In this document: in pieces, positions 604 through 39,722 of the stretch
Layout of the letters: every line of letters begins with the position of its first letter
How positions within the stretch are numbered: the stretch's first letter is position 1
Assembly: GCF_033153115.1 (NCBI RefSeq)
Contig: NW_026889753.1
Location: forward strand, 9,920,001-9,984,000
Origin: Saccostrea echinata
Taxonomy: Eukaryota
Direction: 5' to 3'
DNA length: 64,000 nucleotides
Translations under genes and position numbers: made by a program
The notes under the pieces: model-generated
What the model was told of the DNA's origin: nothing
What the model saw: the letters and a program-made list of their open reading frames with translations, nothing else
Database searches by the model: none

Positions 604-1107
604 TTAAGTATGACTCACAAATCGTATGCAATTGTTATTATGAGACAGGGCTTTCAATAAGGGGAGGTAAGAAGCCGTGTCAGTGAGTGATTGGAATTGT
701 CCCTTTAAATTTCATATAATTGGCAAATAAACTGTCGGAAATAATTATAAATCGGTCCCTTCAATTAAATTAATTCACCACTTCACTTCAATATTATTGA
801 AAACCTGTTGATAATAAATTCCTTAGATGTTTTTCCTTAATCTGGAGAATTGACTTTCTCGTTGACAGATGTATATACAGGTAGCAATCATTTAATACCT
901 ATAATTTGAATTATAGTTTAAAATATAGTTGGTATATGTTTACAATATAATTAAATTTAGAACATTTAAGTAAATAAAAAAAATTGCTGATTATTTGCTA
1001 ATACTTGACTGGATTATGTTATGGATATAAATAAATTAGACAATTAATCTAATAAACTATATTTTCTTCTTAGGTGTCCTTTCCTCATTTCATGTACATT
1101 TTAACTA

Positions 1108-1562
1108 TGTGGACAAACACCACCAAATGTTTTCCCATAGACTTCCATACAAAGTTGAGCCACTGTCACTGATTCATATATTCAATTTTGGGCAAATGAC
1201 TTTCTTGCCGTGAAAGTTCGAGATCTTGCAAACAAAAAATGCCAGAAAAAATATACCGTGCCGTTGCACTTTTACTTTCAAATTCCATTTGTTTACAACT
1301 AGGTGCGTTCAGCACCAAATAAAAAATCTCTAACCAAAGTGCACCTCTCCCTTCAGATTTTTACCTGTAACTCCTATATATCTTAAAGAAGCCTAAGTCT
1401 TGATATGAGATTTTTATCACCTTTATTTCACTTGTCAAATACATAACAAGTCTTTTCTCTTAATGACCAATCATGTGCCGTGTAGCATTTTCTTCTCCGC
1501 ACAACTTTGGATGTCCAAAATGTCTGCGCCCATGTATAAGGTTATGTAGGTGTTTTTCCGTG
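1108..1562. mobile_element. ~455 bp TA-flanked MITE (Tc1/mariner-like), copy 1
   Basis: Termini ggacaaacacc / ggtgtttttcc with TA on both sides. A second copy lies in inverted orientation at 9362-10516. Confidence 0.75.
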
Positions 1563-1664
1563 TATACCGAGGTATTGTTTACTTTCAGTTCAAAACGAAA
1601 GAAGAGTAAATGTAAAACCGGATTCTGATCCATATCAAAGGGTAAACTATAACTGGGTCACAAC

Positions 1665-2696
1665 TTCAGGAAAACTGGTTTGGTTTTGTTTACAGCCATA
1701 TTGCTTACCTTTTCGTCTTTACATCTTTAAACTTGATTGTTAAGAGTTTTACCTCATTATTTTGGAGCTATTTCAACATATTTAACTTTAAACACAACGC
1801 GAAGTCAAACACATGTTGCCGGTTCTCCATTTGTAAACAATCTATGTAACTTCCTGTATTGTGTATTCACATACCTTTGTAAAGTCCGCTCTGATTGGCT
1901 TATCGGCGATATGTGAATCCAATAGTTCTATTTGATATAAACTTATCGATTCATTGATTTTCTATTGTTCAATAAAGTATAAAAGGACAGTCTTGTCCTT
2001 TTCTTTTTGGAGTTGTCTGGCAGAACACTCCGTACAGGTACTGTTTTGAACAGCACCTAACTCTTTTTCTGCTACTTTCACTTTACAGTGTATTTTGATA
2101 ACTGAGTCATTGACTCATTCGGAATTTCTTTCCTAAAAAGTTTATTTTCTGAAATAAATTAAATTTCTTATTTGAAATAAATATTTTTGAATTATCTTCC
2201 TTCTTAAAATTATTTAGATATTTTTTGAACATTTTTTGACTTTAGGAGAGCCGAGCAATTATTTATTACAATTTATATCTGGAAAATATTTACATTTTCC
2301 AATTTATTTTGGTGCTTTTTGATAAAGTATTCATATTCATATTTTGAGTATATTTCTATATAAATATTTCATATTATACAATTTTTCCTTTCTGAGAGTT
2401 TCTCTTCTCAATTTTGTGTACATTATTCATATTTTTCCCTCATTTTGTTATTGCATCTTGTTATCATTTTTGTTATCACCTTTACCCATCAAAATCATTT
2501 TTGTTATATAAAATACTGAAATTTAAACCTGACTTATGTTGTTCTTCTCTGTCATAAGCACATCTAGTGATACGATTGTGGTATGTAAGAGAATCATTGC
2601 TCCTGCGCAAAGCTAAGGTATAATCTAGCACGGCCATACGTTTAATAGATTAGTTATCTTGGCTTGCGGGGGCATGAAACCCTCTTCCTTACTACA
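1665..2696 (+). repeat. 5' LTR (~1030 bp)
   Basis: Matches 8990-9361 + 10519-11016 + 12615-12755. Ends ...ctaca. Starts ttcagg versus tgtagg in the 3' copy. CCAAT boxes at ~1894 and ~1919, TATAAAA at 1978-1984. Confidence 0.92.
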
Positions 2697-2699
2697 TTT

Positions 2700-2717
2700 T
2701 GGTGCCGTGACCAGGAT
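2700..2717 (+). promoter_or_regulatory. Primer binding site, tRNA-His-like
   Basis: TGGTGCCGTGACCAGGAT immediately after the LTR end. It differs at 2 positions from TGGTGCCGTGACTCGGAT, the complement of the tRNA-His 3' end. Confidence 0.8.
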
Positions 2718-2729
2718 GTGCTTCTAATT

Positions 2730-4377
2730 ATGACAGGGAGACAACAAGAAATCAGAAAAATGTTCAGGGATGAACTCTTTGTTGATGGGTCTTTACTAGG
2801 TGCTTCAGGAGGGAAAGATTCAAGAAACAGTAAATCTCCTGAAATCCCCTGAAAAAGTCAAACAACAGAATGAAATATTTGAACTTACAGAAACCATTAA
2901 AAATTTGGAAAAGCGCTTACAAGATGCTTTGAAAAGTTCAGAAACTAGTAGAAAAGAAGAAAAGTATTCAGAAACAAAACCAAAAGAACACTTAGATTTT
3001 CATTATGAAGCAAAATATAAACCTTTTGAGTCTCATCTTCACAGTACACCAAAGTTCAGTGACTTCAATAGACCATTATTTTCAGAGTCAAGGGACGTTA
3101 GATCATCATATGATCCAAGGTTTGGGCTAACACAGTCTAGAAACAGAGACAGAGATGAAATGTTTGGTCAAAGAGTAGGGAACACTGGATCAGTATCTGA
3201 TCCATCCTTCTTAGACACATTTGGTAGAGTGGGGTATAGAAATGAAAACCAGGGCCCACGATTAGGGAATGCTGGATCTGCATTTGATCCAACCTTAAAT
3301 GTCTCCTCTCACTTGGGAAGATCTGGGTACACAAATCCAAGGCATGTCACATTTCAAGCTTCAAGCCCAGCATTCTATTTTACCCCAGGTCATACAAACA
3401 GCACACAGACAGATTTTCAATCCAACTGGTATCCCAGTTATTCTGTGCCTACACAAACATATCCACCTACCATGCACAAAGTAGTTGAACCAGACAAGTT
3501 TGACCCTAACACCACAGACTGGACAGACTACATGGCATATTTTGAACACATTGCACCCTGGAATAGGTGGAATGATATTGAGAAAGCACAACGCTTAATC
3601 ATGTGTGAGAGGGTCTGCACAAAAAGTGCTTAGTGAGTTAACATATCATCAGTGTACAGATTACACCACTCTCACACAAATACTCAACCAAAGATTCAAT
3701 CCACAAGAGAGAGAGAGATAGTTGCTCGTTGTGAGTTTAGAAATAGAAAAAGAGAGACAGGTGAGACAGTGGCACAATATTGGTATGCCCTTAAAAGGTT
3801 GGCACAGCGTGCTTTTCCCAAAGAGCCTAATTCTTCTCTAGAAATCCATGTTATCGTCCAATACCTTAATGGATTGGGACATCATGAACTAAAAAAACAC
3901 ATTACTTTTAAACATCCTCAAACCTTAGAGCAGGCCATTTCCTATGCCTCAGAGTTTGAAGCTATTGAAGGGCCTCTAGACAAAATCAGAAAGCCCATAT
4001 GTAGTCCTGAAACTGAAAATTGTGAAAAAGTTCTAGCATTTGAACAAAAGAGCAAGAAAGATGAAGAGACAGAGGATTTAGAGAGTATGTTTTCCAGACT
4101 GTTAGATGAAAAGTTGGAGAAATTATTTAAAGGGAAATTAGAGAGTGAGAGTTACAAGAACAAACCATTTCCTCAAATCCCAAATCAGTGCAAACCATTC
4201 AATAGAGAAAGAGAGAATGATGAGAGAAAATTTGTACGAAACATTGTGTGTGATTATTGTGGGAAAGTTGGCCATGTAGAAAGTAGGTATTACTTCAAAC
4301 AAAGGGATGAGGGTAAATCTCAGAAGAGTACAGAAAAAGTCAGTGCCCTCTCTCACGGTGAAAATTCGGAAAACTAG
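2730..4377 (+). pseudogene. gag: gag (frameshifted)
   Basis: ORFs 2800-3633 and 3652-4377 contain PDKFD...DW.DY..YFE, ETVAQY...L..LA..AFP and P.TLEQAI..A capsid-like motifs, plus a decayed CCHC knuckle CDYCGKVGHVESRY. Confidence 0.85.
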
Positions 4378-4391
4378 ACAGGGCTGGTCTT

Positions 4392-7300
4392 ATGACCGTG
4401 AGCTCAGCCCCTCAATTAGAAAATGAACAAGAAAATCGGTCATCTACACTCAGTGTGAATGATACAGTCAATGATGATAAACCTGCAGAACACAGGGTTA
4501 AAGTGTCAGTAGGCAATGCCTCTAAAGCTCTCTTGTATTTGAGGGTTAATGTTAAACAAAGACTTCTTAATATGTTAATAGACACGGGGAGCCCTTTTTC
4601 CAACATCACTAAAGAACTTTTTGAAATTATTGGTGTTGAGCCCAATAAAACAGATATCAATCTCACCTCTCCAGATGGAAGGGAGATAACTGTTCATGGA
4701 AAAATCAATGTTGATATGGAAATTATGGGAAAGAAAATTTGTCAAGAATTCATTGTTGCAAATTTAGACAATGTAAATATTTTGGGGATGGATTTCCTAA
4801 AATACATTAATGCATCAATCAACATAAAGAAGCAGGTTTTGAAAACATCTTTGGGCCAATTTAAGCTGTTTAAGAGTAACACAAACAGCAGTTTGACGAG
4901 ACTGTATCAGTTCCTCCTAAATCAGAATAGGTTTTTCAAGCATGGGTTGGGACTGATAGAACCTACTAAAAGCCTGTCAAGTAAGGGTCTTTTTCTGGCC
5001 AGGTCTATCTGTGACCCAAGTTTGGGGGCAGTGACTGTATCAGTCCTGAACATCAGAGAGAAGCCTGTAACCCTTGAAAGAGAGAGTATTGTTGGCACCA
5101 TAAGGAGTGTGAGTGAGATAATTAAAGATCCCAGTACATGCACAGATTCTCACACTGACAACTGCACAGACCAAGATTTTCCAGAACATTTAAAACCTCT
5201 GATAGATACAGTTCACCGAAGTTTGACCGAAGAACAACAACTCAGACTCAAACATCTCATTCTTAAATACAAGGACATTTTTCATGAACCTGGAGAAAAG
5301 TTAGGTCAGACCAACATAACAACACACAAAATCAAAACAGGTGAACATCCACCAATCAAAATGCCACTCAGAAGGTACCCAATGGTTCAATCTAATTAAA
5401 ATTAGATGTTCCGAATCCGCTACCGCTTCTCAAACATCTAACAACATCCCATTCGGGGTCACGTCAGAGCGACCTTTTGATTACCCAATGAAATCGCCGT
5501 CGTCGAAATCTTGGCTTATAGTTCGGATGCGTTTCTTTTTTTACTGCCAAACCTAAACGCCCGAGGAGTTTCGTAGTAAACAAAATATGCATGGTTGGTA
5601 AAGACCGTGCTATATGAATGTGACGTGCGGGATATATAGTAGTTTGTGCATTTTTGTTTGCGTTAATCAGGTAAGAATACCAGATTGGCGGACTATAATT
5701 CAATTTATACCAAAATTACTTTAATTCAACGTAAGACAGTCTACTGAGCATCAATAATGTAAAGATGTAGCCGTGAAACTAATTTTAGAATTGTATACAG
5801 AAGGTTGAATCTGATTGACCAAAATTTTTATGTTTATTCATATTTGAAAGGTCGCTCTGACGTGACCCCGAATGGGATGTTGTTAGATGTTTGAGAAGCG
5901 GTAGCGGATTCGGAATATCTAATTTTAATTAGATTGCCAATGGTTCAGAAACAAATCATAGACAAAGAAATTGATAAAATGTTAGAAGATAAAATTATTG
6001 AACCCAGCATTAGCCCATGGTCCGCAAACATATGTTTAGTTAAAAAGAAAGGTGGCACTCCAAGATTTTGCATAGATTTTAGAAAATTAAATTCTGTAAC
6101 ACAAAAAGATGCTTACCCTCTTCCTCGCATTGACGAGACATTAGATACCCTTTCAGGTCAAGCATGGTTTTGTACTCTTGAACTTGCCAGTGGCTATTGG
6201 CAGATCAAGATGAAATAAGAAATCAGAAAATTCATCTTATGAACTTTTAGCTCTACAGGAATCTGATTGTCATCTGGATTGTAATTCTGAACAAACCAAT
6301 CCGACATCAGATATCATTAAAAATCCTCCATAATCTGTAGATCAGTTCAGTAATGCTAAACATTTGGACTGTGATCAGTCTAGCAACCCTTTTAGCTTTT
6401 TCCCATTGGATTTCCATGAAAATCTTCACAATCATGATGAAGAGCCAAACTGGTTAGGTAGTTTTCAGGACAATGAAATTAAAGAGATGCAAAGAAATGA
6501 TTCCATCATTGGCCCTTTCATTGAATATAAATTACAACATCAAAATAAACCAATCAAATCAGAAATGTCAGGGTTTTCAAGAGAAACAAAAATTTTGTTT
6601 TCCCAGACTGAGTGGGACATACTTGAATTCCATAATGAAATCCTTTATCGCAAATACTATAGACAGGATTGTTTGCAAATGGTAGCCCCTACAAAAATTC
6701 AGAGAGACATTTTTGAAAATCTTCATGTTAAAAGGATTGCAGGCCAGTTTGGCATTGAAAGAACTGTTTCATCAATTAAACGTAGGTTTTATTGGCCTAG
6801 AATGGATGAATGTATGAAAAGATGGTGTGAGTCGTGTGACCTTTGTGCTAGATGTAAGCCAGGTCCCGGGGTTGGAAATTTCCCCCTTCAGCAATTTAAG
6901 GTGGGCGCCCCTTTGCAATGCATAGCAATAGATATTGTTGGATCATTACCTGAAACTGTCAATGGAAATTTATACATCATGGTAATAGGGAACTACTATA
7001 CCAAATGGAAAGAAGCCTTTCCAATCCGAGATCATACCGCCCTTACTGTTGCTGATAAATTAGTTACAGAATTCATAGTTCGTTTTGGTTGTCCAGATCA
7101 GATACATACAGACCAGGGGAGAGAATTTGAATCCCATCTTTTCAAACATGTTTGTAATCTTTTAGACATTGAAAAAACAAGAACTACCCCTTATCACCCT
7201 CAATCAGATGGTTTTGTAGAAAGATTCAACAGAATACTTCGACAAATGCTTAGAATTTTTGTTTCAGAAAATATTGACGACTGGGATGATTTACTCCCAT

Positions 7301-7953
7301 TTCTACTCATGGATTATCGTGCTACTGAACACAAGAGCAGTAAATATTCCCCAAATCTCTTGATGTTTGGCAGAGAAATAAACTGTCCGTTGGATGTAAT
7401 AGTAGGGAAGCCACCAAATGCTCCCAATGAAGAATGCCCTATTAAATATGTTGAGTGGTTGAAATATTCTCTTTTAAATGCTTTTGAAAAAGCAAATGTA
7501 AATTTAAAACAATCCGCAAAAAGACAGAAAACTGACCATGATAAAAACGCAAAATTTGGGGAAATTAGTGTGGGAAAATAGGTTTGGAGATGGTATCCTC
7601 CCAGTGCAAATGAAAAGTTAGGGTTAGGTTGGACAGGACCATATTTCATTATCGATAAAATTTCAGATTTGACATATAAAATTCAGAAATCCCCTAATTC
7701 AGAACCAATTTCAGCACACATAGACCATCTAAAACCGTATTTGGGTTTAACAACACCTTCAGCCTGGAATACCCATGACATTAGTGTGGAAGTTTCCACT
7801 CCAACATCAGAAACATCAGAACCAAATACAACTGTACACAATGACTCCTATTCTGACCCTCCTGAAATTGCACTTACCCCACAACAAACTACAGAATTAA
7901 GAAGTAGGGCAGGGCGACTAATAAAGCCAAAGCAAATATTTAGTCCATCTTAA
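4392..7953 (+). pseudogene. pol: pol remnants: aspartic protease, N-terminal RT, integrase; RT C-half and RNase H deleted
   Basis: Protease LIDTGS. RT motifs SPWSANICLVKKK, RFCIDFRKLN, YPLPRID and LASGYWQI. Integrase FYWP..CDLC, IAID, HTDQG and YHPQSDGFVE, followed by a GPY motif. No YxDD or RNase H between ~6218 and 6364. Confidence 0.9.
5388..5936. mobile_element. MITE with ~90 bp TIRs and 9 bp TSD (Mutator-like) inserted in pol
   Basis: TSD CCAATGGTT at 5379-5387 and 5937-5945. TIR caatctaattaaaattagat... Removing it restores RRYPMVQKQIID. Confidence 0.9.
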
Positions 7954-8123
7954 TTAAAGTTCATCATGTTCATGACTGTTTTAACTATGTTGGTTTTTAT
8001 TTTAATCATCACCTAGATACATGTATAATGGATTTGAACAATTTCCAAATACATGTTACATATGTATATAATTAATGTACTATGTCTAATGTCATTGAAT
8101 GTATCTTTATTTTTAAGTTATAG

Positions 8124-8710
8124 ATGGATGTATTACAGCTAGATGTTCCCATGGAGGAGATCCATACTTTGGATGATGATTTAAGACCAGAGTGGAATTC
8201 TGAGGGAATGACCTGCCCTGTGCCTAAGTGTTCCAATAGTAACAAATTTAATACCTTCAGGAGTTTCATGGCTCATTGGACGAAAGTGCATGTTTCCGTA
8301 AAAAACTTAATAAACGTTCTGAATGTAAAAAACTTATCCAAACAAAACATAAGAAGCAACATGAACGCCAACATTCTACAAAAATCGAATTTACTGTAAT
8401 TACCGTCCCTAACAAAGAATACATCGATTCAGAACTAATTCTTCCTCCAAAATTTTCCAAAATTCAAAACATGCCTGAATCTCCAAGAAAAATTGCACAA
8501 CGGAAAAGAAAATATGAAGCAGAGAAAGTCCTTGCAAACACAACCATTTTTTCCGAAAATTTAGATCCAGATTTCAACAATTCCAGAGACGAAAAGCTAT
8601 ATTTCCTTGAAACCAACAACAAAACAATTGTCACCTATCACAAAAACCCACGATGGTACAAAGATGCACCGGTGGAACCCCCAAGAACCAGGCAATCAAT
8701 AAGATATTAA
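8124..8710 (+). pseudogene. Accessory ORF3 of the Gypsy element: C2H2 zinc-finger protein (~195 aa if one A is restored at ~8300-8304)
   Basis: CPVPKC...F.....F..HW...H finger in ORF 8124-8399. Continues in ORF 8276-8710 with (R/C)SECKK...HERQH and a basic RKIAQRKRK stretch. Located between IN and the PPT. Confidence 0.7.
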
Positions 8711-8976
8711 ACATTATTAAGTTGAAGAGACTTTGATGTATTTGAAGTATATTGTTGTTATTTATATACCCATGCAAGTTTTATGATAATGATAATCACT
8801 CATTTTTCTTTTGTTGTAAATAAATACCCGAGTGATTCATGATATCAATTTGATGCAATATTTTTGTATGACTAATATGTAAATGACGTTGAATTTTTTA
8901 TCGGTCATTGTATCATGTATTGTATTTTTTCCTTTGGTGATTATTTAACACACAAATGTTTACACTTTTGTTCCCC

Positions 8977-8989
8977 AAGGAGGGAAGAG
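8977..8989 (+). promoter_or_regulatory. Polypurine tract
   Basis: aaggagggaagag immediately before the TG of the 3' LTR. Confidence 0.8.
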
Positions 8990-9361
8990 TGTAGGAAAAC
9001 TGGTTTTGTTTACAACCAAATTGCTTACCTTTTCATCTTTACATCTTTAAACTTGATTGTTAAGAGTTTTTATCTCATTAATTTGGTGCTATTTCAACAT
9101 TTTTAACTTTAAACACAACGCGAAGTCAAACACACGTTGCCGGTTCTCCATTTGTAAACAATCTATGTAACTTCCTGTGTTGTGTATTCACATACCTTTG
9201 TAAAGTCCGCTCTGATTGGCTAATCGGCATTATGTTAATCCAATAGTTCTGTTTGATATAAACTTATCGATTCATTGATTTTCTATTGTTCAATAAAGTA
9301 TAAAAGGACAGTCTTGTCCTTTTCTTTTTGGAGTTGTCTGGCAGAACACTCCGTACAGGTA

Positions 9362-10516
9362 CAGGAAAAACACCTCCATAACCTTATACATGGGCGCAGA
9401 CATTTTGGACACCCGAAGTTGTGCGGAGAAGAAAATGCTACGTGATTGGTCATTAAGAGAAAAGACTTGTTATGTATCTGACTTATCTCAGCGACATCCG
9501 TAGAGAATAAAAATTTTGGTCTGGTATCTCTACGGATCTCAGACCAGTATCACATAATCTCATTCGGGGTTTCGTTCCCGGAATTCGACCGCTTGTTTCG
9601 ATTACTACGGGCTGAAATGAATTAGCTGTCCGCTTCAAATTTTTGCTTTGGACATCCTTTTAATTCCCTATCACCATAAAACTTTCGTTTCTTACCTCTG
9701 AAAGATTTAAATCCATCAAAATATAAAGTTGTTGATTTTTCATACAATAAGCTATTCGTTTAAACCTCCGATGCTGAAGAGTTCCAGCAATATTCTGCTT
9801 CAAATACTTCGTACTATGGTTCATTTCTATAGGAAAAATTAGTAGAACGAAGTATTTGAAGCAGACTATTGCTGGAACTCTTCAGCATCGGAGGTTTAGA
9901 CGAATAGCTTATTGTATGAAAAATCAACAACTTTTATTACATGTTGATGGATTTAAACCTTTCAGAGGTAAGAAACGAAAGTTTTATGGTGATAGGGAAT
10001 TAAAAGGATGTCCAAAGCAAAATGTTGAAGCGGACAGCTAATTCATTTCAACCCGTATTAATCGAAACAAGCGGTCGAAGTACGGGCACGAAAACCCCGA
10101 ATGAGATTATGTGATACTGGTCTGAGATCCGTAGAGATATCAGACCAAAATTTTTATTCTCTACGGATCTCGCTGAGATTAGTATTTGACAAGTGAAATA
10201 AAGGTGATAAAAATCTCATATCAAGACTTAGGCTTTTTTGAGATATATAGGAGTTACAGGTAAAAGTTTGAAGGGAGGGGTGCACTTTGGTTAGAGATTT
10301 TTTATTTGGTGCTGAACGCACCTAGTTGTAAACAAATGGAATTTGAAAGTAAAAGTGCAACGGCACGGTATATTTTTTCTGGCATGTTTTGTTTTGCAAG
10401 ATCTCGAACTTTCACGGCAAGAAAGTCATTTGCCCAAAATTGAATATATGAATCAGTGACAGTGGCTCAACTTTGTATGGAAGTCTATGGGAAAACATTT
10501 GGTGGTGTTTGTCCTA
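9362..10516. mobile_element. TA-flanked MITE, copy 2 (inverted relative to 1108-1562)
   Basis: Reverse complement of 1108-1562. TA duplication at 9360-61 and 10517-18. Absent from the 5' LTR (empty site ggta|ctgtt). Confidence 0.85.
9483..10181. mobile_element. ~700 bp foldback/palindromic element with 9 bp TSD (MULE/Foldback-like)
   Basis: Arms ~9483-9815 and ~9843-10181 are near-perfect reverse complements. Flanked by gtatctgac / gtatttgac. Confidence 0.85.
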
Positions 10517-11016
10517 TACTGTTTCAGCACCTAACTCTTTTTCTGCTACTTTCACTTTACAGTGTATTTTGATAACTGAGTCATTGACTCATTCGGAATT
10601 TCTTTCCTAAAAAGTTTATTTTCTGAAATAAATTAAATTTCTTATTTGGAATAAATATTTTTGAATTATCTTTCCTCTAAAAATTATTTAGATATTTTTT
10701 GAACATTTTTTGACTTTAGGAGAGCCGGGAAATTATTTATTACAATTTATATCTGGAAAATATTTACATTTTCCAATTTATTTTGGTGCTTTTTGATAAA
10801 GTATTCATATTTTGAGAATAATATTATACAATTTTTTCCTTTCTGAGAGTTTCTTTTCTCAGTTTCGTGTACATTATTCATATTTTCCCCTCATTTTTGT
10901 CATTTTTGTTATTGCATCTTGTTATCATTTTTGTTATCATCTTTACACATCAAAATCATTTTTGTTATATAAAATACTGAAATTTAAACTTGACTTATGT
11001 TGTTCTTCTCTGTCAT

Positions 11017-12603
11017 GGTTAAATGATTATCTTACTAGTCGATCACAACAGCTTAAAATAAAATCATCAAGTTCTTCAGTGGGAAGAACCAAAGCAAGAG
11101 TTCCCCAGGGTTCTGTTCTTGGACCTTTACTTTTTCTAGTTTATATAAATGATCTGCCATGTGGACTCTTGGGTCTCTCTAGACTATTTGCAGATGACAC
11201 ATCTGTGTCAAACTCCTCTAAAAACTTGCAGGACTTAGAAAGATTTACTAATTATGATTTAGAAAAAATTAACGAATGGTCAAAAAACTGGCTTGTAAAA
11301 TTTAATCCTGATAAGACTAAAATATTAATATTTGGTTGTCAAGAAGATGAAGTATCCAATCTACGGTTCAAGTTTGACAATCAAGAAATAGTTCCATCTT
11401 CTACTCACTGTCATCTTGGACTTACGTTTTCAAATTCTGGCAAATGGACAAATCACATCGATAACATTATTAAAAAGACTTCAAAAGAAATTGCTGTTCT
11501 TCGTAAATTAAAATTATCATTGAATCGTGATTTTTTTAACTAAGATGTATATTACATTTATTAGGCCACTATTTGAATATGCATCAGAAGTATGGGATAA
11601 CATTTCCGCAGCTGACTGTGATAGGCTGGAGAAATTACAATTAGAAGCTGCGCGTATTGTCACTGGTCTCCCTATTTATGCTCCTCGTAAGTCTCTGTAT
11701 TTCGAAACAGGATGGGAAACACTTGCTTATAGACGAGAAAAGAGAAAATTATGTTTAATGAATAAAATAAAATATGGCCTCGCGCCAGACTATTTATTAA
11801 ATCTATTACTTCCTGATGTCTCATAAACTACCCATTATGATTTACGTAATCGCAATAATATTTCTATTCCCCAATGTAAAACAAACTTATTAAAAAATTC
11901 GTTCATTCCATCTACAATATCAGTATGGAATGCTTTACCTACAGAGATTAGAAACCTTGATACTGTAAATGCTTTCAAAAAAAAGACTCTTTGAAGGTGA
12001 ATCTCCCCAAAAGTATTTTTCTTATGGTGATAAAAAAACAAACTCAATTTTAACAAGAATGAGACACAATGTAAGCATCCTTAAGTCAGATTTATTTAAG
12101 GTTAGGCTTTCAGATAACACTCAGTGTTCTTGTGGACATATTAATGAAAACACTGAACACTTCTTCCTGTACTGTAAAAATTATGCTGAAATTAGAACAG
12201 AATTATTTCACACCGTATAAAATAACAAAGGAGCAATAGACCTTGACATAATTCTATTTGGAGACCCAAATTTGGGTCAACAAAATAATATCAACATTGT
12301 TAAAGCCGTACATAAATATATTAAAAAATCGAAAAGATTTTTATGAATAACCAGCGTAACCATTCTGTATCTTTTACAACCCCTCCTTCTTTCTTCGATT
12401 CTCTCTTTGCACTCCCATTCCCTTCCTTTCTTATTTCTCTGCACCCTTTTCTTTCTTCTTTATTTTTTTGTATTGTATATTTGTTGCTTGTACATCACGT
12501 GTATATAATTTTATTTTGTTTGTGTTGGAGAGGACAATCTAAGTTGGTATAACTTGTGTCCAATCCCATTGATTGTGTTCAATAAAATATGTTTAAATAA
12601 AAA
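11017..12603 (+). mobile_element. 5'-truncated CR1/L2-group LINE (RT C-terminal part and 3' UTR)
   Basis: VPQGSVLGPLLFLVYINDL and LFADD motifs, frameshifted downstream ORFs, AATAAA plus A-rich tail. 11 bp TSD TTCTCTGTCAT at 11006-11016 and 12604-12614. Confidence 0.9.
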
Positions 12604-12767
12604 TTCTCTGTCATAAGCACATCTAGTGATACGATTGTGGTATGTAAGAGAATCATTGCTCCTGCGCAAAGCTAAGGTATAATCTAGCACGGCCATACGT
12701 TTAATAGATTAGTTATCTGGGCTTGCGGGGACGTGAAACCCTCTTCCTTACTACACAACAAAGAATC

Positions 12768-14467
12768 ATGCTTTTTAGAATCCTCTTTGGAATTGCATTG
12801 GCAGTGTCAGCTGCTTTTATTTCAAAAATGATGTAAGTATAATATATATAAGATTTTTCTTTATTTTTGTACAAATATTCTCATAATATCTCTCCAAATC
12901 ATTACGGTGTTGAGCAGCACAGTAGCAGTATATAAGTGTATCTTACTTCATTTTAATAATGAACATTTTCGGAATCTCAGACACCCGACAACCCGGCAGT
13001 CCGGACTTCGGACTTTTGACTTAAGGGAACGTGTCAAATAGTAATTTGAATTATACGTATATATTTTATTGAACTCGATAATCACATTTCGTTCTTATTT
13101 GTATGAGTTATACATTGTGTACACAAATACTTAGGAAGGGGGCAGGCGGCGTGTCTCCACTTTTCGGAGAATACTTTTTTGATCCCTTTCCCGAAAGCTT
13201 GTTTCATTTTACAAATTAATAACACCAAATTCCGAACGACAAATAGATAAACAGAAATCTCCAGAAGCAAAGAAAATTTTATAAACTTGTGTATCTTTAT
13301 ATTAATAATTGTATGACCATGATGACACTGAGCGCACAATCTGTAAACTGAAAATAGAATAAAATTTTGTCAAAGCAGTTTATGGCGTCACTCGAGAAAA
13401 AAGATTATGTAATATTGTTTCAGAAATTGTTTGTAGACATACAAAAAGTTCCTTGTCAGAGTAAACAGAGCATGCTACAACATTACCGGTGTAATTATGT
13501 ACAACATACCACCAGTACAACTCTTTTCATACTCGACGTATTAGGCGCAGAGAAGAAAACCTAAGCATAAGGCTTTAAAATGACACCCGATTTTACATCT
13601 CTAATGCACAATCACGTTCCCTCCTAAACATAATATATCAACTCAATATTATATTCTCATTGGAAAAGCCAGCTACATTATAGGGAGATCTGGTATCTGT
13701 GGCCACCTTGAGGCTTCCAGTGGGTACAGGGAAGAGCCTTGGTGGGGTCCAGAAATTATAAGCTTCTAGATTCTGGGAATTTGAGAGACAGACTTTTTAA
13801 TACAAAACGCATTAATTTGAATGGTGTTTTTGTAATAAAGATTTTGTATTTATATCATGACCAAGATAATAATTATGGAAGAAATTATATGAACACTATG
13901 TATTAATGTCATATGTATGCATACGAGTTCATGTTCAACAAAGAAATTACTTAATTTACATATACTAAAATTATTTAATATTTTGCACTTAATATGTCTC
14001 AATTTTTTTTATATCATCTTTAAAAGATGAAGGGGAATCTTTAATAATTGTTTCTTTTCATTTTGAGATTAAAATCGACGAGTAGAATCAACCCGAGCAA
14101 TATACGAGTACATTTGTATTTTTTAAATCGAATTTGGCATTTTTTATGCGTAGTTCTTGAGGAAGCCAAATATAAATTATAGCATATATGAAAACGTTTT
14201 ATCAATATTTTGTTGTTGATGTATCCTATTTATTATTAAAAAAAAAAAAGAAGAAAAGGTTAGTTTCTATATCATTTTAAATGAACCTAAGTCTAAAAAG
14301 TGTTGAAAAAAAAAAGTTTTCCATATGTACTCGAAAAAAACCCCGAAATTTTTGAACGACTTCATAATACAGAACAAGTTCTTGATAATTCTTAAAATAT
14401 CGTTTATATGGATATGTCTACATACCTCTCGCTTTTCACCTATTTTAACTTTTTACATTGCTTATCT

Positions 14468-14501
<34 letters not shown>

Positions 14502-17500
14502 AAAATCAAATGATAGGGTGCGTTACAAGCCCCATATCCCCCTTTTGGATCCGCAACTGAAATATCATGCATAGATACATATTAATTATTTTCAATTCAT
14601 GCAGTGATTTGTTTGTGAGATTCACTATATCGATTTTTTAAAATTTTTTTATTAATCTTGGTAATGATGATGTATTTTATTGTTGTCTTCATTCATTTCT
14701 AACAGATATCAGAGATTCTCAGTACAGCAAACATGCTGTGTGTGAAAACGTTTCTATACTCTCCCCAAAAGTTAGCTTTGGTTTTCAAGTCCTCTGTCAG
14801 TAGTACGATGTCAGGTGTCTGATATTCCGAAAATGTTCAATACCATTTACAATCTAAGAGGACTTTGCAAATAACTTTACGGTTAACCGTGTAAATATTG
14901 CATGCACAATAGACTCAATTATGCCATACGATTTCTTTTAGTATTAAGTACTTACCAGTACATTCTGTTTTTTGATTTTTCCCAGCTTGTTCATGGACTA
15001 TCACAAAACCCTGTGGAATCATAGACCAGGGAAATGTCATATTGTGGAAGGGATAGGTATCAGAAAAGATGATTGACACACTCAATCTTATATAAGAGCA
15101 TTCATTAAAGCAAACACTGTAGGCATTGTACTTTCTTGATTAACATTTTTTCTATATAATATACTGTAGAATCTTTATATCCATTCTACATAAGTCTTTT
15201 GAGCATGTTTTTGTGCTTACAGAGTATGGTTCTGAGGATATGCAGACCATAAAGTCTGGATTAACCTTCATCACCTCTGTAAGTTTCATTCGAATGTGAA
15301 ACAAAATTGCTATATACATCCTTAATATATATACAATGTAGCTGGGGATTTATTGATTGATTGTATGTTGTTTTACGTCCCATCCCATTCGAGAATTTTT
15401 CTCTCATATAGAGACGTCTCAAATTTAGACCTTTACTGGGCACTCAGGGCTTTTGAGCTGTGAGGGTTCTGTATCGTGCCAACGCCTTCCGTAACACGGG
15501 ACCTCGGTTTTAAGGTCTCATCCGAAAGACCCGGCTGCTACTTTCACTTCTAGTGTCGTTTGCTTGGCGGAGGAACAGTCACTACCTTTGTTTATGTCTT
15601 ATATTTGACGCCAGACAGGGATCGAAAATCGAACCCGGGGTTCCCGATAAAGAGCCCCCTACCACAAGGCTACCGCGACCGGTTTATAGCTGGGGGTATC
15701 TGTCTATCTTTCTCTCTCTCTCTCTCTCTCTATACATATATTTATATATAATTTTTAAAGGGGATAAATGCAGTAGCTTTAGCAGGCCGAGGATATCAGG
15801 AATATTACAAGAAACACAATGTGAGAGGGAGAATTATGTTGTTTAACATGGAGAAACCAGAGGATGGGGTTAAAGAATTGATGATTATTGGAAACAAGTT
15901 CAGTTATGACGACTTCTATCCTCATGGAATCAGTGTGTTAGAGGACAAAGGTAGCTTTAAAAATATGTACATGATAAACCTATGACCAATGCATATATAC
16001 TGATACCTTATAGATATTTATTGTATAAAATATCTATTTACTTATCACATGCATAGATTATCACTGCTTGCCACAGATCAGATTTTAAGGTACTTGTTTA
16101 GATTAGATTTACACATTACTTACACATAGAAAATAATAATAATAATAATAATGATAAATTTTCTGGATGAGATAACTCTAATAATTTACACAGAAAGTTA
16201 ATTAAAGATTTTTGTCCATATGTTTCATTTATTTCATTTTTGTTTTTCTTATTATCTTTTAAACTCATTTTGTAAGAATTATCTTAGTTGAATATGTACT
16301 GAAAATAGCAGCTATCCCTCTACCATACATCAAATATTTAAAAAAAAAATTTTTGTAACTTTACAGATAGGCAGAATACAATTTCGTAATTATCTTCTAA
16401 TCCAAACTTTATTTATTTCTCTGAATTCTGTATTTGCCCATTACTTCAGATAAAGTGTTGCTGTTTGTTGTGGTTCATCGGAATGAACAAGATACAGTGG
16501 AGAAATTTGAATTTCTAGAGAAAACCTTAGAACTGAAGCATCTAAAAACTTACGCAGGAACTTTAGCTCACACGTATGTTTATAAATAACGTTTATCTCA
16601 ACATTATTATTCAATACAGCTCATTGCAATTCACTATAAATAAACGCTCCTGGACTATTTTAGGTTGATCTTGGGTTAATCTGCATTCTGTTTTAGACTC
16701 AATGATGTGGTAGCAACAGGACCAGATACATTTTATACAACAGATTATGCGTATTATCGTGATTCTAGACATACCTTAGAAGTCGTTTTGGGGCTTCACT
16801 TTGGACATATTTTGTTCCACAATGGCAACGATTTTATCATTGCTTCAGAACCAACATATACGGCAAATGGAATTGCTCTCTCCAAGAATGGAAAGTAAGT
16901 GTAGATAGAAACCCTTTTTGAATATTTTTATTTTGTTTTGAAAAGAAAGTGAAGCTCTTGTATTATTTTTTCCTTTAATAGATTCGTGTATGTCGCTAGT
17001 GGTAGTAAAAAAATGATGGTATATAAAAGAGAGTCGAATCACAAACTTACTAAAGTCAATGTAAGTGAAAAAAGTAATCATAACTGTCGTTTTATAAAAC
17101 ATGACGTTTGATCTTTGTTCATACCAACCTTGTTTTTTAATGCAAACATGGCATTTCATGACATGGGTTTATTCATCATATGATTAATTTAGTTGACAAA
17201 ACTTTTACTTAATTCAGTACAATACTAGTAAAATACAGCTAAAAGAGGATAAATTTAGTTTAAAATTTCATTTTACTATGTGTTTAGGAAATTTCACTCC
17301 ATACCGCCCCAGACAACTTAGTGGTGGATCCAAAAACTGGAGATGTCTTGCTGGGCTGCCACCCAATACTATATAAAACTACTAAGCATCTAAATAACCC
17401 AGATGAACCAGCAGCTTCGCAGGTAAGACGTGGCCCTGATCATAATTGAAAATTAATTATCCCACTTTGGTAGAGGGCTCGCTCCGTGATCGGAAGGTCG

Positions 17501-19122
17501 TGGATTCAAACACCGGCTGCGACTGACCTAAGTCGATAAAGTATTGGTAGCAACTGTTCCTTCGCTAGTTGCTCGGAACTTTGAAGTGAAAGTTGCTGGT
17601 CTTTCGGATGAGATTTTAAAAACCGTGATCTTAAGTCACGGCAGGCGTTGGCACAATAAAGATCCCTCACTGCTCAATGGAACTAGGTGCCGAGTAAATG
17701 TGTATATTTGAAGCCCTTCGCCACTATATGGTGACGTCTTTAAATGAGTGAATAATTCTCGAAAGAAACGTAAAACAACATACAATCAATCATTCAATTA
17801 TCCCACCTCTGATGTTTTTAGAGAGCCGTGTTTTCTCTGCTCATAATTTGTATTGTTTCAATGGACTTTGATTACTGTTCTCTTCATACTTCATTCTACA
17901 AGATCTAATGAAATACAGTTGAACTTCGTTATCTCGAACACCGATATCTCGAGAACAAGGAATATGTCGAAGTGATTTAATTTGGCTGTCCCAACCAGTT
18001 TTTTTTCTTCATGTTTTTACAATCGTTATACTGAATCCTCGGATACATCGAAGTTCAGTCTGGGTCCTCTCGAGTTTTGCAATAGGTAATAGTCTACCTA
18101 AGGATTTTTCGATGTACAGCTGTCGTTGAAATTCTTTTCTGTTTAGATAAAATTAATGATAATTTAAAATGTTTCTACATATAAATAGATTTTCTCAAGA
18201 ATCATAAAAATATTATAGTTTTTAAAACGCGACCATGAATTTTACTAATATTGACTGTATTGAGGATATACATGTAGTTCTCACATATTTTTATTTCAAA
18301 GTTGCTCAGATTTATTATCAATTTCTAAATATTTGAAAAGAAATACCGAAGAAAAAGTTAAGCATATACTGAAAATGTTAAGTACTTTATAATATTTTTG
18401 CTAGTCTGACGAACTTCCTAGAATTCAAATAGTTACTTCTCCAGCAATTTTACAATTATATGTTTGTTTCTTTATTGCTTCGTGTACCTTCGAGAATTCC
18501 TCACTCATGTTAGTCCGCCACCAAGTGCCGATGGAATTAAACCTGTATTCAGCACTTATGGCTACTGAGCAATAAGGGATCTTTTTCGTGCCATAACTTA
18601 CTGCGACACAGGGCATCGGTTTATTTGGCCTCATCCTACGGATCGTCTCCATTTTATACAATGGATTTGAACCCGAAGGTAGGAAGGATCCATACCTTAT
18701 TCCGCGACCCTAGAACGAAATGCTCTCTTTCTGCGCCAAGGGGACTAGCCTAAAACTTAAGGAATAGTATAAGTGTCTAAGTCTGTTCATTGTTAAGATC
18801 TTTATGTTAGGAAACTCTTTTTTAAATTTCATAAATAGAAGACTCAGCAAAAATTGTCAATTTTTATGGAAAAATCTAAATTAAACTTGAAGCTTAATCT
18901 ATAGGTTTTAAGCATTTATGACTTGTCTCATTGTGAACTTTTTTACTGTAGGTGCTGATGTTACACATGGATAACAGTGGTACTAATATGACAAGTGTAA
19001 CGGAACTGTTCTCAGATGACCTTGAACTATATGCTTCGAGTGTAGCTACATTGTACAAGAATCGTATGTTAATTGGTACAGTGTGTCACAAAATGATGTA
19101 CTGTGAAGTTAATTCATTATAA
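12768..19122 (+). CDS. PON: Serum paraoxonase/arylesterase (PON)-like lactonase, 9 exons, 362 aa, intact
   Basis: Exons 12768-12832, 14986-15056, 15223-15278, 15761-15950, 16450-16573, 16697-16894, 16982-17060, 17288-17422 and 18952-19122. All introns are GT-AG with matching phases. N-terminal hydrophobic anchor; motifs GSED, PHGIS, VVVH, LNDV, ANGI, PDNL, GCHP and IGTV...YC. Confidence 0.93.
12961..14838. mobile_element. ~1.9 kb TIR element in PON intron 1
   Basis: ~30 bp terminal inverted repeats gaacattttcggaatctcagacacccgaca / tgtcaggtgtctgatattccgaaaatgttc. Confidence 0.6.
15348..15686 (-). mobile_element. tRNA-derived SINE (probably Meta-domain type)
   Basis: B-box and (TTGA)n-type tail. 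TSD tagctgggg. Shares its body with the 40353 and 54088 copies. Confidence 0.75.
17466..17795 (+). mobile_element. tRNA-derived SINE
   Basis: TSD aattatcccac; gatccctcactgctcaatgg core; (CAAT)n tail. Confidence 0.75.
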
Positions 19123-34816: not shown

Positions 34817-36886
34817 TTAATATTTGATTGCGGATATCACTCTATTCCAAAACATTTCCTTCCCCGATTTTTCATTGGTCCACTCTATGAAGGTGGTTGT
34901 CTTCAGCAGAACATGTAAAGAGTTGGTCATATTTTTTGTAAGGATATTTTCCAAAATAATTACAATAACCATCTCCTTTTCCTTATTTATTGTTCGCAAC
35001 TGTGCCAGCATGGTTTCGAATCGACACCAATGGCTCTGTGCAAAGCTGTTAGACAAAATGATAAGAATCTTTCGGCTTCTATGCATGGTGTCGGTTATAT
35101 TATCTACGATAAGTTTTCCCACTTGGAAATCTCTGTCATGTAGACAAAGTTTGAATTTTGCTTCCTTCTCTAGTTTTGGTACAATTTCTGAAATAACCCA
35201 TACTCTATCATTAGAATTATAAGCTACAAAAACATCGAAGGCAAATTCATCGCCTCCTAATATTTCATAACCTCGTCTTTTGGCACGCAAGAGGTATAAA
35301 TAGTACTTAATATGCCAGCGTTTTTGGTATAATACACACGAAACTATAACGATGACAATCACTGCAAAGGATACCGATACAGCCACCAGAATATATGGAT
35401 TGAAAGGGTGACAAAATTGGAAACTTAGATGGAAATCAGCGAGATTCCGTCCTTTCCATTCCTGTGGGAGATTGCATACATACTCTTTTGGCCAACCGAG
35501 AAGCTGATGTGAATGATGTTGAATCCACCCTCGAAACCAAACTAGATTACATGTACACAAGAAGGGATTTCCTTTCAAGCCAATTTGTTCAATATGATCT
35601 GGAAGGTTTGTTTTAGTCAAAGTAGTTATCAGATTGTAATCTAAAAGAAGAGTCTTCAAATTTACTGATGTCGATGAAAATATCCCCAAGTGGGATTCAT
35701 TTATAAAACAGTTTTGTAAGGAAAGCTTTTTCAGGTTTGGCATGATGGTGAAGAGGGTTTTCGGGAAGGTTGATACAGCGGTACCTTTTAATGTAAGTTC
35801 CTGAAGTTTCGTGAGAGGCCGAAAAAGCTTGAACAATTTCCAGTCTAGGTTATGTGACGCGTTAAGCTGTATCCCAGTCATATCTAGTATTTTCAAATTA
35901 CGACAATGTTGGAAAATATTTACAGCATGACTGATAATATTCATTTTGTTTGCCATGTATAAAAACGTCAAAGAAGAACTATTGAAAGAATATTCATTAA
36001 CTGTTACATCCGGTGCAAGGTTTTCGAGTGACAAATATTGAAGATTAGGTAAGCCATTTATGAAGTTCTTAACGATGGTCTGAATTTTGTTATATCCAAG
36101 CGTTAGATTTCGAAGATTTGGCAAGCATTCTTTCATGAAATTTCTTTTCTTTATGACGGATATTAGATTATCACTCAGGTGAAGAACTTTAAGCTTCGGG
36201 AAACTTGGTTTGCCACTAAAGCAGAATTTTGGAACTAATAGTAATTTGTTTTTCCTCAGATTCAGAACTTCCATATTCGGCATCACTCTCTTGAATTCAA
36301 CAAATGAAATTTCGTTGTTCGTCAATGAAATCAGTTGCATCTGTTGGGGTAACGACAACAAGTTTCCACTGAAATTGTAAAGCACATTGTCGTCTAAGTA
36401 AATTCGTCTTAATTTTTTCAACTGTACAAAAAAGTCATCTGACATATTAGCCATATGCAGCTGTGTGAGATAGAGTTCCTGTATGACCCCAGTCTGTAAT
36501 CCATGAACTACTTTCTTAAGTTTCTTTGCATGTAAATTGTTGTCACTAAGGTCCAGGGATAGTAGGTGAGGAAGTTTCCGGAAAGCACGTTTATTCACTT
36601 GATTAATGCTGTTCCTTCTTAAGACAAGTTTGGTAAGGTGTAGATGGGATATATTATCGAAAACGTTATCTCTCATGTGGTGCAGAGAATTACGACTAAA
36701 TGTGAGAGAGGTGATATTTCTAGGAAGAGGAGGAATGTAATCCAGTTGTTTGCCATGTCCCTCACAGATTGCTTCGTTCTTCTGACACACACAAACATCA
36801 GGACATGAAATATTCCCCAGTATGGACAAAAAACTCACTGGTAGAAGATGTAATAAAAACAGACAAAACTTCGCATTCAAACGCAT
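34817..36886 (-). CDS. TLR: Toll-like receptor A (single exon, single-cysteine-cluster type), 689 aa
   Basis: Signal peptide, LRRNT CPDVCVC, many LxxLxLxxN repeats, LRRCT NPFLCTC, a TM helix, and a TIR domain (FDVFVAY, LHDRDFQVG, FW). Confidence 0.95.
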   Translation of the reverse strand: MRLNAKFCLFLLHLLPVSFLSILGNISCPDVCVCQKNEAICEGHGKQLDYIPPLPRNITSLTFSRNSLHHMRDNVFDNISHLHLTKLVLRRNSINQVNKRAFRKLPHLLSLDLSDNNLHAKKLKKVVHGLQTGVIQELYLTQLHMANMSDDFFVQLKKLRRIYLDDNVLYNFSGNLLSLPQQMQLISLTNNEISFVEFKRVMPNMEVLNLRKNKLLLVPKFCFSGKPSFPKLKVLHLSDNLISVIKKRNFMKECLPNLRNLTLGYNKIQTIVKNFINGLPNLQYLSLENLAPDVTVNEYSFNSSSLTFLYMANKMNIISHAVNIFQHCRNLKILDMTGIQLNASHNLDWKLFKLFRPLTKLQELTLKGTAVSTFPKTLFTIMPNLKKLSLQNCFINESHLGIFSSTSVNLKTLLLDYNLITTLTKTNLPDHIEQIGLKGNPFLCTCNLVWFRGWIQHHSHQLLGWPKEYVCNLPQEWKGRNLADFHLSFQFCHPFNPYILVAVSVSFAVIVIVIVSCVLYQKRWHIKYYLYLLRAKRRGYEILGGDEFAFDVFVAYNSNDRVWVISEIVPKLEKEAKFKLCLHDRDFQVGKLIVDNITDTMHRSRKILIILSNSFAQSHWCRFETMLAQLRTINKEKEMVIVIILENILTKNMTNSLHVLLKTTTFIEWTNEKSGKEMFWNRVISAIKY

Positions 36887-37446
36887 CTTGAAGTAAGCTA
36901 ATACGTTGACAAAACATTTTCTAAATACTTTTTATCAGGAAATATTTTTGCGTAGTCTTAAGTATTTTCCGGGTCTTGCATACAGCTTTATTACTATTAT
37001 TATTTTTGCGACAATATCTTTAAAATATATTTGACATACTTATAAAGATCATTAAATTCATATTGTATACATATATGCATTTCTAAAAATAATCATTATA
37101 TGAGAACATTTTTTTGGAAAATTATAGAAACATTTCAGATCATTTTTTTCTTAGTTGTATGTCATTGTGAATCAAATTGTAATTTGATGGCGAAAATGAA
37201 TCTGCTTCAAAATACAAGTAGGTCTTTTCCTGTTTTTCCCCTTTGTCTATTCTTTTACGTAAGTACTGAGCTTAAGGAAAACGTGAAGGAGGGCTTTTCA
37301 TATTATGTAAGGATATTCTATCAAGTGACAATCCTTCAAAAAAAAAAATGTAAACTTGTATAAAAGAGATATGTACGAAGTGATTTGCAATGTATAAGAT
37401 TTCGTAAGTGTCAAGAGGTGAGGACGTTACCAGGAAACAGGTTGAT

Positions 37447-37575
37447 NNNNNNNNNNNNNNNNNNNNNNNNNNNNNNNNNNNNNNNNNNNNNNNNNNNNNN
37501 NNNNNNNNNNNNNNNNNNNNNNNNNNNNNNNNNNNNNNNNNNNNNNNNNNNNNNNNNNNNNNNNNNNNNNNNNNN
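37447..37575. other. Assembly gap
   Basis: Run of N. Confidence 1.
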
Positions 37576-38428: not shown

Positions 38429-39644
38429 TACGGAAGCCCATTTAGGACCTATCAAAAAATATTTTAGAATTCGATATAACGAATTGTTGAATTTGTTATA
38501 ACAAAGAGCTAGGTTCACTTTATGCATAAAATGGCCCTGTTCTTATATCAATTACTTGATTATCACTTTCTGCCCCATGTCATATATCAAAATAAAGTAG
38601 AGACTTAGCACTCTCATCTCCTATAACAAGATTTCTTTTGGAGAATTCGGGTATTGGAAAACAGGCTTTGTGAAAATGCAATGTTCTTGAATTTTGCAGA
38701 AAACAGGCATATTTGACTACATTCAGCAAATAATTAAAATAAGAGCACAGTCCTCGATCCAAAAATTTAAATATGTTTTATGATCTTAAGAAACAGACCT
38801 TTCATTATGTAATTGCATATTTTGGATCAGAGGTTGTGCTCTATATGAAATATTGAAAAAATACTCCAACTTTTGGCCATTTTTAAAGGAATTTACAGGA
38901 TATGATAAAAATGACGCATTTTATGACGTCATAATGCATTGACTAGAAAGAAAATTACGTCATGTTCAATAGATAAACGGTCACCAAGGGTCCAAGTAAT
39001 AAATTCTGCATTTTCAACCAAAACTGAGCAGTTTCGATTTTTCAGAAATTCTCAGGGCCAAAAAAGGCCCTAAGTGGCTCTTGCTCTTTAATTCGTTATA
39101 ACAGTTTATTTGAATTCGTTATAACGAATTTAATCTGTTATAACAAATTTGTTGAATTCATTATAACGAATTCAAAAATTGGTTATAACGAATTAAATTC
39201 GTTTAAACAAATTCTAAAATTTGTTATAACAAATTAAATTCGTTTAAACGAATTCTAAAATTTGTTATAACAAATTAAATTCGTTTGAACGAATTCTAAA
39301 ATTTGTTACAACGAATTAAATTCGTTTAATCAAATTCAGGGCCTGTACAATCAGGACCTGTAGAAAAATATAAATTTAATTCGTTATAACAAATTAAAGA
39401 ATTCATTTTAACGAATTAAATTCGTTATAACAAGTTTTAGAATTCATTATAACGAATTTAATTCGTTATAACAAAATTTTCAATTCGTTATAACGAATTC
39501 AACAAATTTGTTATAACAGATTAAATTCGTTATAACGAATTCAAAGAAACTGTTATAACGAATTAAATTCGTTATAACAAATTTGACAATTCGTTAAATC
39601 GAATTCAAAAATATTTTTTGATAGGTCCTAAATGGGCTTCCGTA
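38429..39644. mobile_element. IS3EU-like MITE filled with palindromic minisatellite, with a nested insert at ~38505-39087
   Basis: TACGG...CCGTA termini, 6 bp TSD CTTCTC, and internal aattcgttataacgaatt units. Confidence 0.7.
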
Positions 39645-39722
39645 CTTCTCGAATGTGTTGTTATACACTACTGAAGTTTCTCCTTTACTGCTGTTAATAA
39701 TTTTGTGATGAGTAAAGAATGA

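What the first reader, a model, noticed from the sequence alone, without database searches (positions are those of the whole stretch)
1580..12770. 11 kb retrotransposon inserted 12 bp upstream of the ATG of a still-intact PON gene
Seen: the CAAC TSD reconstructs the empty site ...aactgggtcaCAACaaagaatcATG, so the native leader (Inr-like TCAGTT at ~1585) is displaced by 11 kb. The insertion is old (diverged LTRs, four later nested insertions), yet all 9 PON exons and splice sites are intact. The LTR end supplies a pyrimidine tract (ccctcttccttactac) just before AAG at 12761-63, and the native leader has a donor-like G|GTAAAC at 1642. Inference: the element may be spliced out as a new 5' UTR intron, or the LTR may now act as the promoter. 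A sense LINE poly(A) signal at ~12581-12601 would work against simple read-through.
Basis: partly seen in the sequence, partly recalled or inferred. Interest (0 to 1): 0.7.

Follow-up and report, generated by a model that had tools for sequence, protein, structure and literature searches.

The report
Jumping gene beside oyster paraoxonase start
An 11-kb dead retrotransposon sits 12 bases before the start codon of one intact paraoxonase gene copy in a rock oyster; one RNA-like contig shows the gene still using its upstream leader, but it cannot tell whether the element is spliced out or simply absent from that animal, so this is probably an ordinary insertion with one open question.

Summary
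The anatomy is real. A decayed Gypsy element (1665-12755, 4-bp duplication CAAC, LTRs 3.3% diverged, four nested elements) ends 12 bp before the ATG of an intact 9-exon paraoxonase. The protein is identical to Saccostrea echinata XP_061169886.1, one of at least four paralogues.

The proposed 1641-to-12764 junction was seen in 0 of 4 laid runs. One contig in 1 of 4 runs joins 1566-1605 to 12767 and runs into exon 2. So the upstream leader is real, and the cut falls before a GT at 1606. But the window has AT, not AG, at the other end, and letters between the two pieces are not excluded. That animal's haplotype therefore probably differs, and it may or may not carry the element.

The proposed acceptor is weaker than all 8 real ones, and the skipped span holds 21 better-looking acceptors and 18 AATAAA.

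Best reading (0.45): a polymorphic insertion buffered by other haplotypes and paralogues. Splice-out from the occupied allele stays open (0.3).

The parts
1108..1562 (-). Tc1/mariner-like MITE (TA-flanked; class label from recalled criteria), sister copy of the one nested in the 3' LTR; holds TATAA at 1535
   Evidence: self-BLAST 97.9% and 90% pieces; K2P 0.018 and 0.044; junction with the leader also bridged by a 157-nt contig in X5
1566..1605 (+). PON leader segment found joined to exon 1 in an RNA-like contig; no ATG
   Evidence: joint 1605 to 12767, side 40, depth 16.7, run X1; ATG scan
1661..1664 (+). left target-site duplication CAAC
1665..2696 (+). 5' LTR (begins TT, ends CA; TATA-like 1978, AATAAA 1971)
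2700..2715 (+). primer-binding site starting TGG (tRNA-His-like, assignment recalled)
   Evidence: sequence
2800..4377 (+). gag region, in two frames
   Evidence: (Ty3_capsid E=0.005, below the curated cutoff)
4362..7953 (+). broken pol: protease, RT start, about 0.9-kb deletion over RT/RNase H, integrase
5388..5936 (.). MITE with 90-bp TIRs and 9-bp TSD (Mutator-like by those features), inside pol
   Evidence: many similar contigs in 3 of 4 runs
8124..8710 (+). extra ORF after pol, two C2H2-like motifs, frameshifted in this copy; T-rich acceptor at 8117
8977..8989 (+). polypurine tract
   Evidence: sequence
8990..12755 (+). 3' LTR (TG...CA), split by later insertions; only 12604-12755 touches the gene
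9364..10515 (+). Tc1-like MITE inserted at TA, carrying a foldback element at 9481-10183
11017..12603 (+). 5'-truncated sense LINE, 11-bp TSD, AATAAA at 12581 and 12596
   Evidence: (RVT_1 E=1e-11)
12756..12767 (+). right TSD CAAC plus 8 host bases; weak AAG at 12761-63; observed join falls before 12767
12768..19122 (+). PON coding exons 12768-12832, 14986-15056, 15223-15278, 15761-15950, 16450-16573, 16697-16894, 16982-17060, 17288-17422, 18952-19122
   Evidence: identical to XP_061169886.1; PF01731

Best explanation
A Gypsy element integrated in sense orientation into the roughly 100-bp host leader of one paralogue of a PON family, then decayed (shown). The gene is transcribed in the species from the upstream position, giving an mRNA whose leader is 1566-1605 (shown by one contig). 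Most likely the insertion is a presence/absence polymorphism. The mRNA seen would then come from a haplotype with a different leader structure and no element, while the occupied allele gives little full-length mRNA, because read-through splices into internal acceptors such as 8117 and ends at LTR or LINE poly(A) signals (inferred). The coding exons stay intact through recombination with working haplotypes, and the loss is buffered by paralogues (inferred).
For: The X1 join ends before 12767, where the window reads AT, so X1 probably differs from the window at that spot. The AG at 12762-63 is A-rich at -4..-12 (0.56 against 0.11-0.33 in 8 of 8 real acceptors) and T-poor (0.31 against 0.44-0.75). 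21 of 643 AG sites inside the element match the context of all 8 real acceptors, and the skipped span holds 18 AATAAA. The 8117 acceptor is used in a contig of a family copy. At least four PON genes lie on one contig. Four other oyster species are 3-14% hemizygous, and Gypsy elements made 1,982 of 17,215 unique insertions in one population set (bioRxiv 10.64898/2026.02.10.705023, passages; Saccostrea not included).
Against: No empty-site joint (1664 to 12760) in any of 4 runs, though only 2 of 4 show exon 1. The X1 cut lies right before GT, which a random break would do about 5% of the time. With the element removed the skipped part would be only 63-66 nt with T 0.19 at the acceptor, a poor intron next to the gene's shortest of 87 nt. 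LTR divergence (3.3%) exceeds SNP heterozygosity of other oysters (0.6-1.3%), so the allele may be common or fixed. An unbroken CDS after neutral decay has probability about 0.01-0.33 at the central date. P0002 shows no excess of private changes (4, against 3-4 in its three nearest relatives).
Confidence: 0.45

Rival explanations
1. The element is spliced out of the occupied allele as an 11.2-kb 5' UTR intron. The host GT at 1606 is the donor, the LTR end supplies the pyrimidine tract and branch point, and an AG just before the start is the acceptor (12762-63 in the window; a small variant in X1). Exon 1's strong downstream donor helps define it.
For: Join 1605 to 12767 starts at GT and is the only exon-1 contig in X1 (depth arithmetic 2.93 matches). 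The pre-insertion interval is too short and T-poor to be a normal intron. Age, intact CDS and normal branch length. Pyrimidine share at -5..-20 is 0.69 with the LTR against 0.44 without. Branch-like CTTAC at 12747. Paralogue isoform P0012 starts at the Met at the end of exon 1, which hints at upstream non-coding exons in this family (inference).
Against: The skipped span ends AT in the window, so an unseen polymorphism is needed. Weak donor (3.4) and acceptor; 21 competing acceptors and 18 AATAAA in sense orientation. One contig in 1 of 4 runs, letters between the pieces 'not known', and no evidence that X1 carries the element. X4 shows exon 1 without this joint.
Confidence: 0.3
2. The occupied allele is transcribed from a new start in the last 150 bp of the LTR or the LINE tail.
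For: X4's exon-1 contig has no listed joint and no listed 5' loose end, which would fit a start on window sequence between about 12622 and 12800. Only one ATG lies in 12604-12767.
Against: The LTR TATA-like box (9299) is cut off by 3.4 kb and 51 ATGs. The loose-end and piece tables are truncated (81 and 361 rows not shown), and a graph branch with a paralogue sharing the first 14 codons (P0011) would explain X4 equally well. Contigs cannot show starts.
Confidence: 0.1
3. The first reader's junction, donor 1642 to acceptor 12763, is the main route.
For: Both dinucleotides exist; the 1642 donor scores 5.3, within the 2.6-10.8 range of the gene's 8 real donors.
Against: Seen in 0 of 4 runs; rank 32 of 556 GT sites; it would leave the ATG-stop at 1610 in the leader.
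Confidence: 0.05
4. The occupied allele is fixed and silent, a young pseudogene that has not yet decayed, and the contigs come from a near-identical paralogue.
For: If indels are ignored, P(intact) is 0.22-0.49. Likeness was set to 90, which could admit paralogues.
Against: No other letters are listed on exon 1 or the leader piece (130 rows not shown). The contig fits to 12832 and its loose end is this gene's exon 2 start, which differs from P0011.
Confidence: 0.07

Closest known systems
Ty3/Gypsy LTR retrotransposons of bivalves (PMC6238403, passages; nearest pol relatives 50-54% identical in the integrase region, including Pinctada and Mytilus proteins)
   Same: LTRs, PBS, PPT, 4-bp TSD, gag then protease-RT-integrase order
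   Different: dead copy with a pol deletion and nested elements; carries an extra two-finger ORF; clade not determined
Drosophila vermilion 412 insertion (Fridell, Pret, Searles 1990: title seen in the reference lists of PMC4691828 and PMC2586383; one discussion passage of PMC4691828; paper itself not read)
   Same: an LTR retrotransposon in an exon that can be spliced out of the pre-mRNA; an upstream 5' splice site protects the RNA
   Different: that insertion is antisense and its splicing is shown; here it is sense, millions of years old by a borrowed rate, and splicing from the occupied allele is not shown
LTR-derived introners (PMC12130899, passages: about 12% of classified introners; a Copia family in P. 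virgatum whose full and solo-LTR copies form introns)
   Same: an LTR element that may be removed as an intron
   Different: introners are families making many introns; here there is one locus, and both candidate splice sites lie in host DNA
Serum paraoxonase/arylesterase (PON1-like, PF01731)
   Same: Pfam match; E=3e-59 to PON1 structures; conserved calcium-ligand and histidine positions
   Different: one of at least four S. echinata paralogues, sister to the S. cucullata protein P0003 (98/97 support); activity untested

Membership tests
Ty3/Gypsy LTR retrotransposon | two direct LTRs | tested here: met
   999 aligned columns, K2P 0.033
Ty3/Gypsy LTR retrotransposon | TG...CA LTR termini | tested here: inconclusive
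   3' LTR is TG...CA; 5' LTR starts TT and ends CA
Ty3/Gypsy LTR retrotransposon | 4-6-bp target-site duplication | tested here: met
   CAAC on both sides
Ty3/Gypsy LTR retrotransposon | PBS and PPT | tested here: met
   TGG-starting PBS at 2700, purine run 8977-8989; tRNA identity recalled
Ty3/Gypsy LTR retrotransposon | pol order protease, RT, (RNase H), integrase | tested here: met
   the RNase H region is deleted in this copy
named mollusc Gypsy clade (C-clade, MolGy etc.) | placement in an RT/RNase H tree | not tested
   most of RT/RNase H is missing and no reference set was at hand
Introner / TE-created intron | element removed from mRNA of an allele that carries it | tested here: inconclusive
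   one contig skips it, carrier status unknown
Introner / TE-created intron | canonical splice ends at or next to the element ends | tested here: not met
   observed ends GT..AT, with the donor 59 nt outside the element
Introner / TE-created intron | many family copies acting as introns | not testable with these tools
   no whole genome held
PON1-like paraoxonase | Arylesterase domain, homology to solved PON1 | tested here: met
   PF01731 49 bits against cutoff 21; PDB E=3e-59
PON1-like paraoxonase | calcium ligands, His dyad, terminal cysteine pair | tested here: met
   E50, D51, H119, H137, N171, D172, N226, D270, N271, C39, C357 invariant in 9 of 9 oyster proteins and aligned to the PON1 chain; their roles are recalled
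PON1-like paraoxonase | lactonase/arylesterase activity | not testable with these tools
   needs an assay

The most novel reading that the evidence does not exclude
The insertion is common or fixed and has become an 11.2-kb 5' UTR intron. A host GT at 1606 pairs with an acceptor made usable by the LTR end, later insertions in the 3' LTR may have weakened its poly(A) site, and the core promoter may come from the MITE just upstream (TATAA 31 nt before the contig start). The gene's 5' end would then be rebuilt by two unrelated transposons.
Probability: 0.22. Interest if true: 0.5.

Novelty: new member of a known kind. Interest (0 to 1): 0.25.

Why it matters
If polymorphic, it is one more TE allele in a highly hemizygous oyster genome, with a possible dosage effect on one of several PON paralogues: ordinary. 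If it is spliced out of a common allele, it would be a dated natural case of intron gain from a full-length sense Gypsy element in a mollusc. That is testable with one PCR and one cDNA experiment, and it adds an example to a known mechanism rather than a new one.

Tried and rejected
(1) Whole-genome search for family copies and paralogue leaders: no genome held. (2) PON loci in JGI metagenome contigs: 0 of 135 and 0 of 183 pattern matches confirmed. (3) Sequencing runs: no RNA holder listed on record; the RNA/DNA labels are guesses. (4) X5 and X9 show no listed exon-1 contig; uncovered parts are no evidence. (5) Contigs on the LTR and the internal region carry many differences and look like other family copies, so they do not genotype this site. 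(6) The X4 contig start cannot be fixed: depth allows 12622 to about 12800. (7) Assembly artefact rejected: exact TSD, complete element anatomy. (8) 1606-1660 as a repeat fragment: no second copy in the window. (9) Earlier scan findings: none. (10) Literature searches listed no paper on this locus; the library lacks most subscription papers, and no supplements were read.

Full report
Identity. Nine exons at 12768-19122 with 8 of 8 GT-AG introns give a 362-residue protein. It is identical at 362 of 362 positions to XP_061169886.1, a PON1-like protein of Saccostrea echinata. At least three more PON genes lie on a contig of the same length. The protein matches PF01731 and solved PON1 (E=3e-59), and it keeps the calcium-ligand, histidine and cysteine positions (roles recalled). 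It is sister to the S. cucullata protein P0003, with terminal branches 0.07 and 0.11. It has 4 private changes at otherwise invariant columns, against 3-4 in its three nearest relatives, so there is no sign of decay.

The element. 1665-12755 (11,091 bp) is flanked by an exact CAAC duplication and ends 12 bases before the ATG. It has two LTRs, a PBS, a PPT, and gag followed by protease-RT-integrase in Gypsy order. It is dead: frames are broken and about 0.9 kb of RT/RNase H is missing relative to P0014. Four elements are nested in it; only those confined to the 3' LTR must postdate integration. LTR divergence is 0.033 (0.021-0.045). That is 2.4-5.1 million years at the 4.4e-9 insect/mollusc average quoted in PMC12130899 (passage), a borrowed rate that could be off severalfold.

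About 1108-1562 is an inverted sister copy of the MITE nested in the 3' LTR. Only about 96 bp of non-TE DNA lies between it and the Gypsy element, so the 'native' promoter was already next to a transposon. A 157-nt contig in run X5 bridges this MITE and the leader up to 1623.

The proposed signals. The 1642 donor ranks 32 of 556 GT sites in 1563-12755 (matrix recalled). The AG at 12762-63 has a pyrimidine share equal to most real acceptors at -5..-20 (0.69), but its last bases are A-rich and it is T-poor compared with 8 of 8 real ones. Inside the element, 21 of 643 AG sites match all real-acceptor criteria. The span holds 18 AATAAA, and 51 ATGs separate the 3' LTR's TATA-like box from the PON start. 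One internal acceptor, 8117, is used in a contig from a family copy.

Transcript evidence. Nine runs hold 0.08-0.19 of the gene's words and none is on record as RNA. I laid 4 of 9, from four samples, on 1000-14400; all are contigs. Exon 1 with a loose end into exon 2 is listed in 2 of 4 (X1, X4). In X1 one contig (depth 16.7) joins 1566-1605 to 12767-12832, and depth arithmetic shows it is the only exon-1 contig there. No differences are listed on these pieces, but 130 rows are hidden. The skipped span starts GT and ends AT, and the tool marks the letters between as not known. It is absent from the table that lists up to 40 such letters, so I infer either none or more than 40. Either way the X1 haplotype probably differs from the window just before the start codon. 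The 1641-to-12764 junction and the empty-site junction were each seen in 0 of 4 runs. X4 shows no joint to the leader and cannot be interpreted.

Weighing. The leader is real and lies upstream. A cut before GT (about 5% by chance) suggests splicing, yet the pre-insertion interval of 63-66 nt would be a poor intron, which is the best argument that the 11-kb version is what is spliced. The allele's age against oyster SNP heterozygosity of 0.6-1.3% (other genera) points the same way. So does an intact CDS, with P about 0.01, 0.06 or 0.33 under neutral decay depending on the indel rate assumed. Against it stand the missing AG, the weak sites, the sense orientation with many competing acceptors and poly(A) signals, the single contig, and the high rate of TE presence/absence variation in oysters. 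In a polymorphic population, recombination can keep exons 2-6 kb away intact regardless.

Comparison. Splicing of retrotransposons out of exons is known (vermilion 412; title and one passage seen), and LTR elements make up about 12% of classified introners. This locus fails the introner test on splice-end position and is inconclusive on removal. It is a new instance of a known kind of event. My eight answered searches listed no paper on this locus, and earlier scan notes held nothing.

Verdict. Interest 0.25.

Noticed in passing
window 8124-8710 (+): Extra ORF downstream of pol encoding a conserved protein of about 200 aa with two C2H2-like motifs, frameshifted here. 13 of 24 candidates were homologues, all unnamed Logan contigs at 49-71% identity, with no Pfam family. 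A family contig joins 7931 to 8118 (GC..AG), 6 nt before its ATG, which suggests a spliced accessory gene of this Gypsy family.
   Followed up: partly
window 1535-1566: TATAA inside the upstream MITE lies 31 nt before the start of the X1 contig; possibly a MITE-supplied core promoter, but contigs cannot show starts.
   Followed up: partly
window 1108-1562 and 9364-10515: Two 96-98% identical copies of one MITE 8 kb apart in opposite orientation; local hopping or simply an abundant family.
   Followed up: partly
window 34817-36931 (-), 43997-46120 (-), 55937-57985 (-): Three single-exon LRR-transmembrane-TIR (Toll-like receptor-like, by eye) genes; the third is a near-identical but frameshifted copy of the first.
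   Followed up: no
window 38455-40340: Two arrays of about 41-bp repeats arranged as inverted blocks, foldback-like.
   Followed up: no
window 47296-48878 (+): Broken RT-like ORFs, Penelope-like by eye.
   Followed up: no
window 37447-37575: 129-N assembly gap.
   Followed up: no
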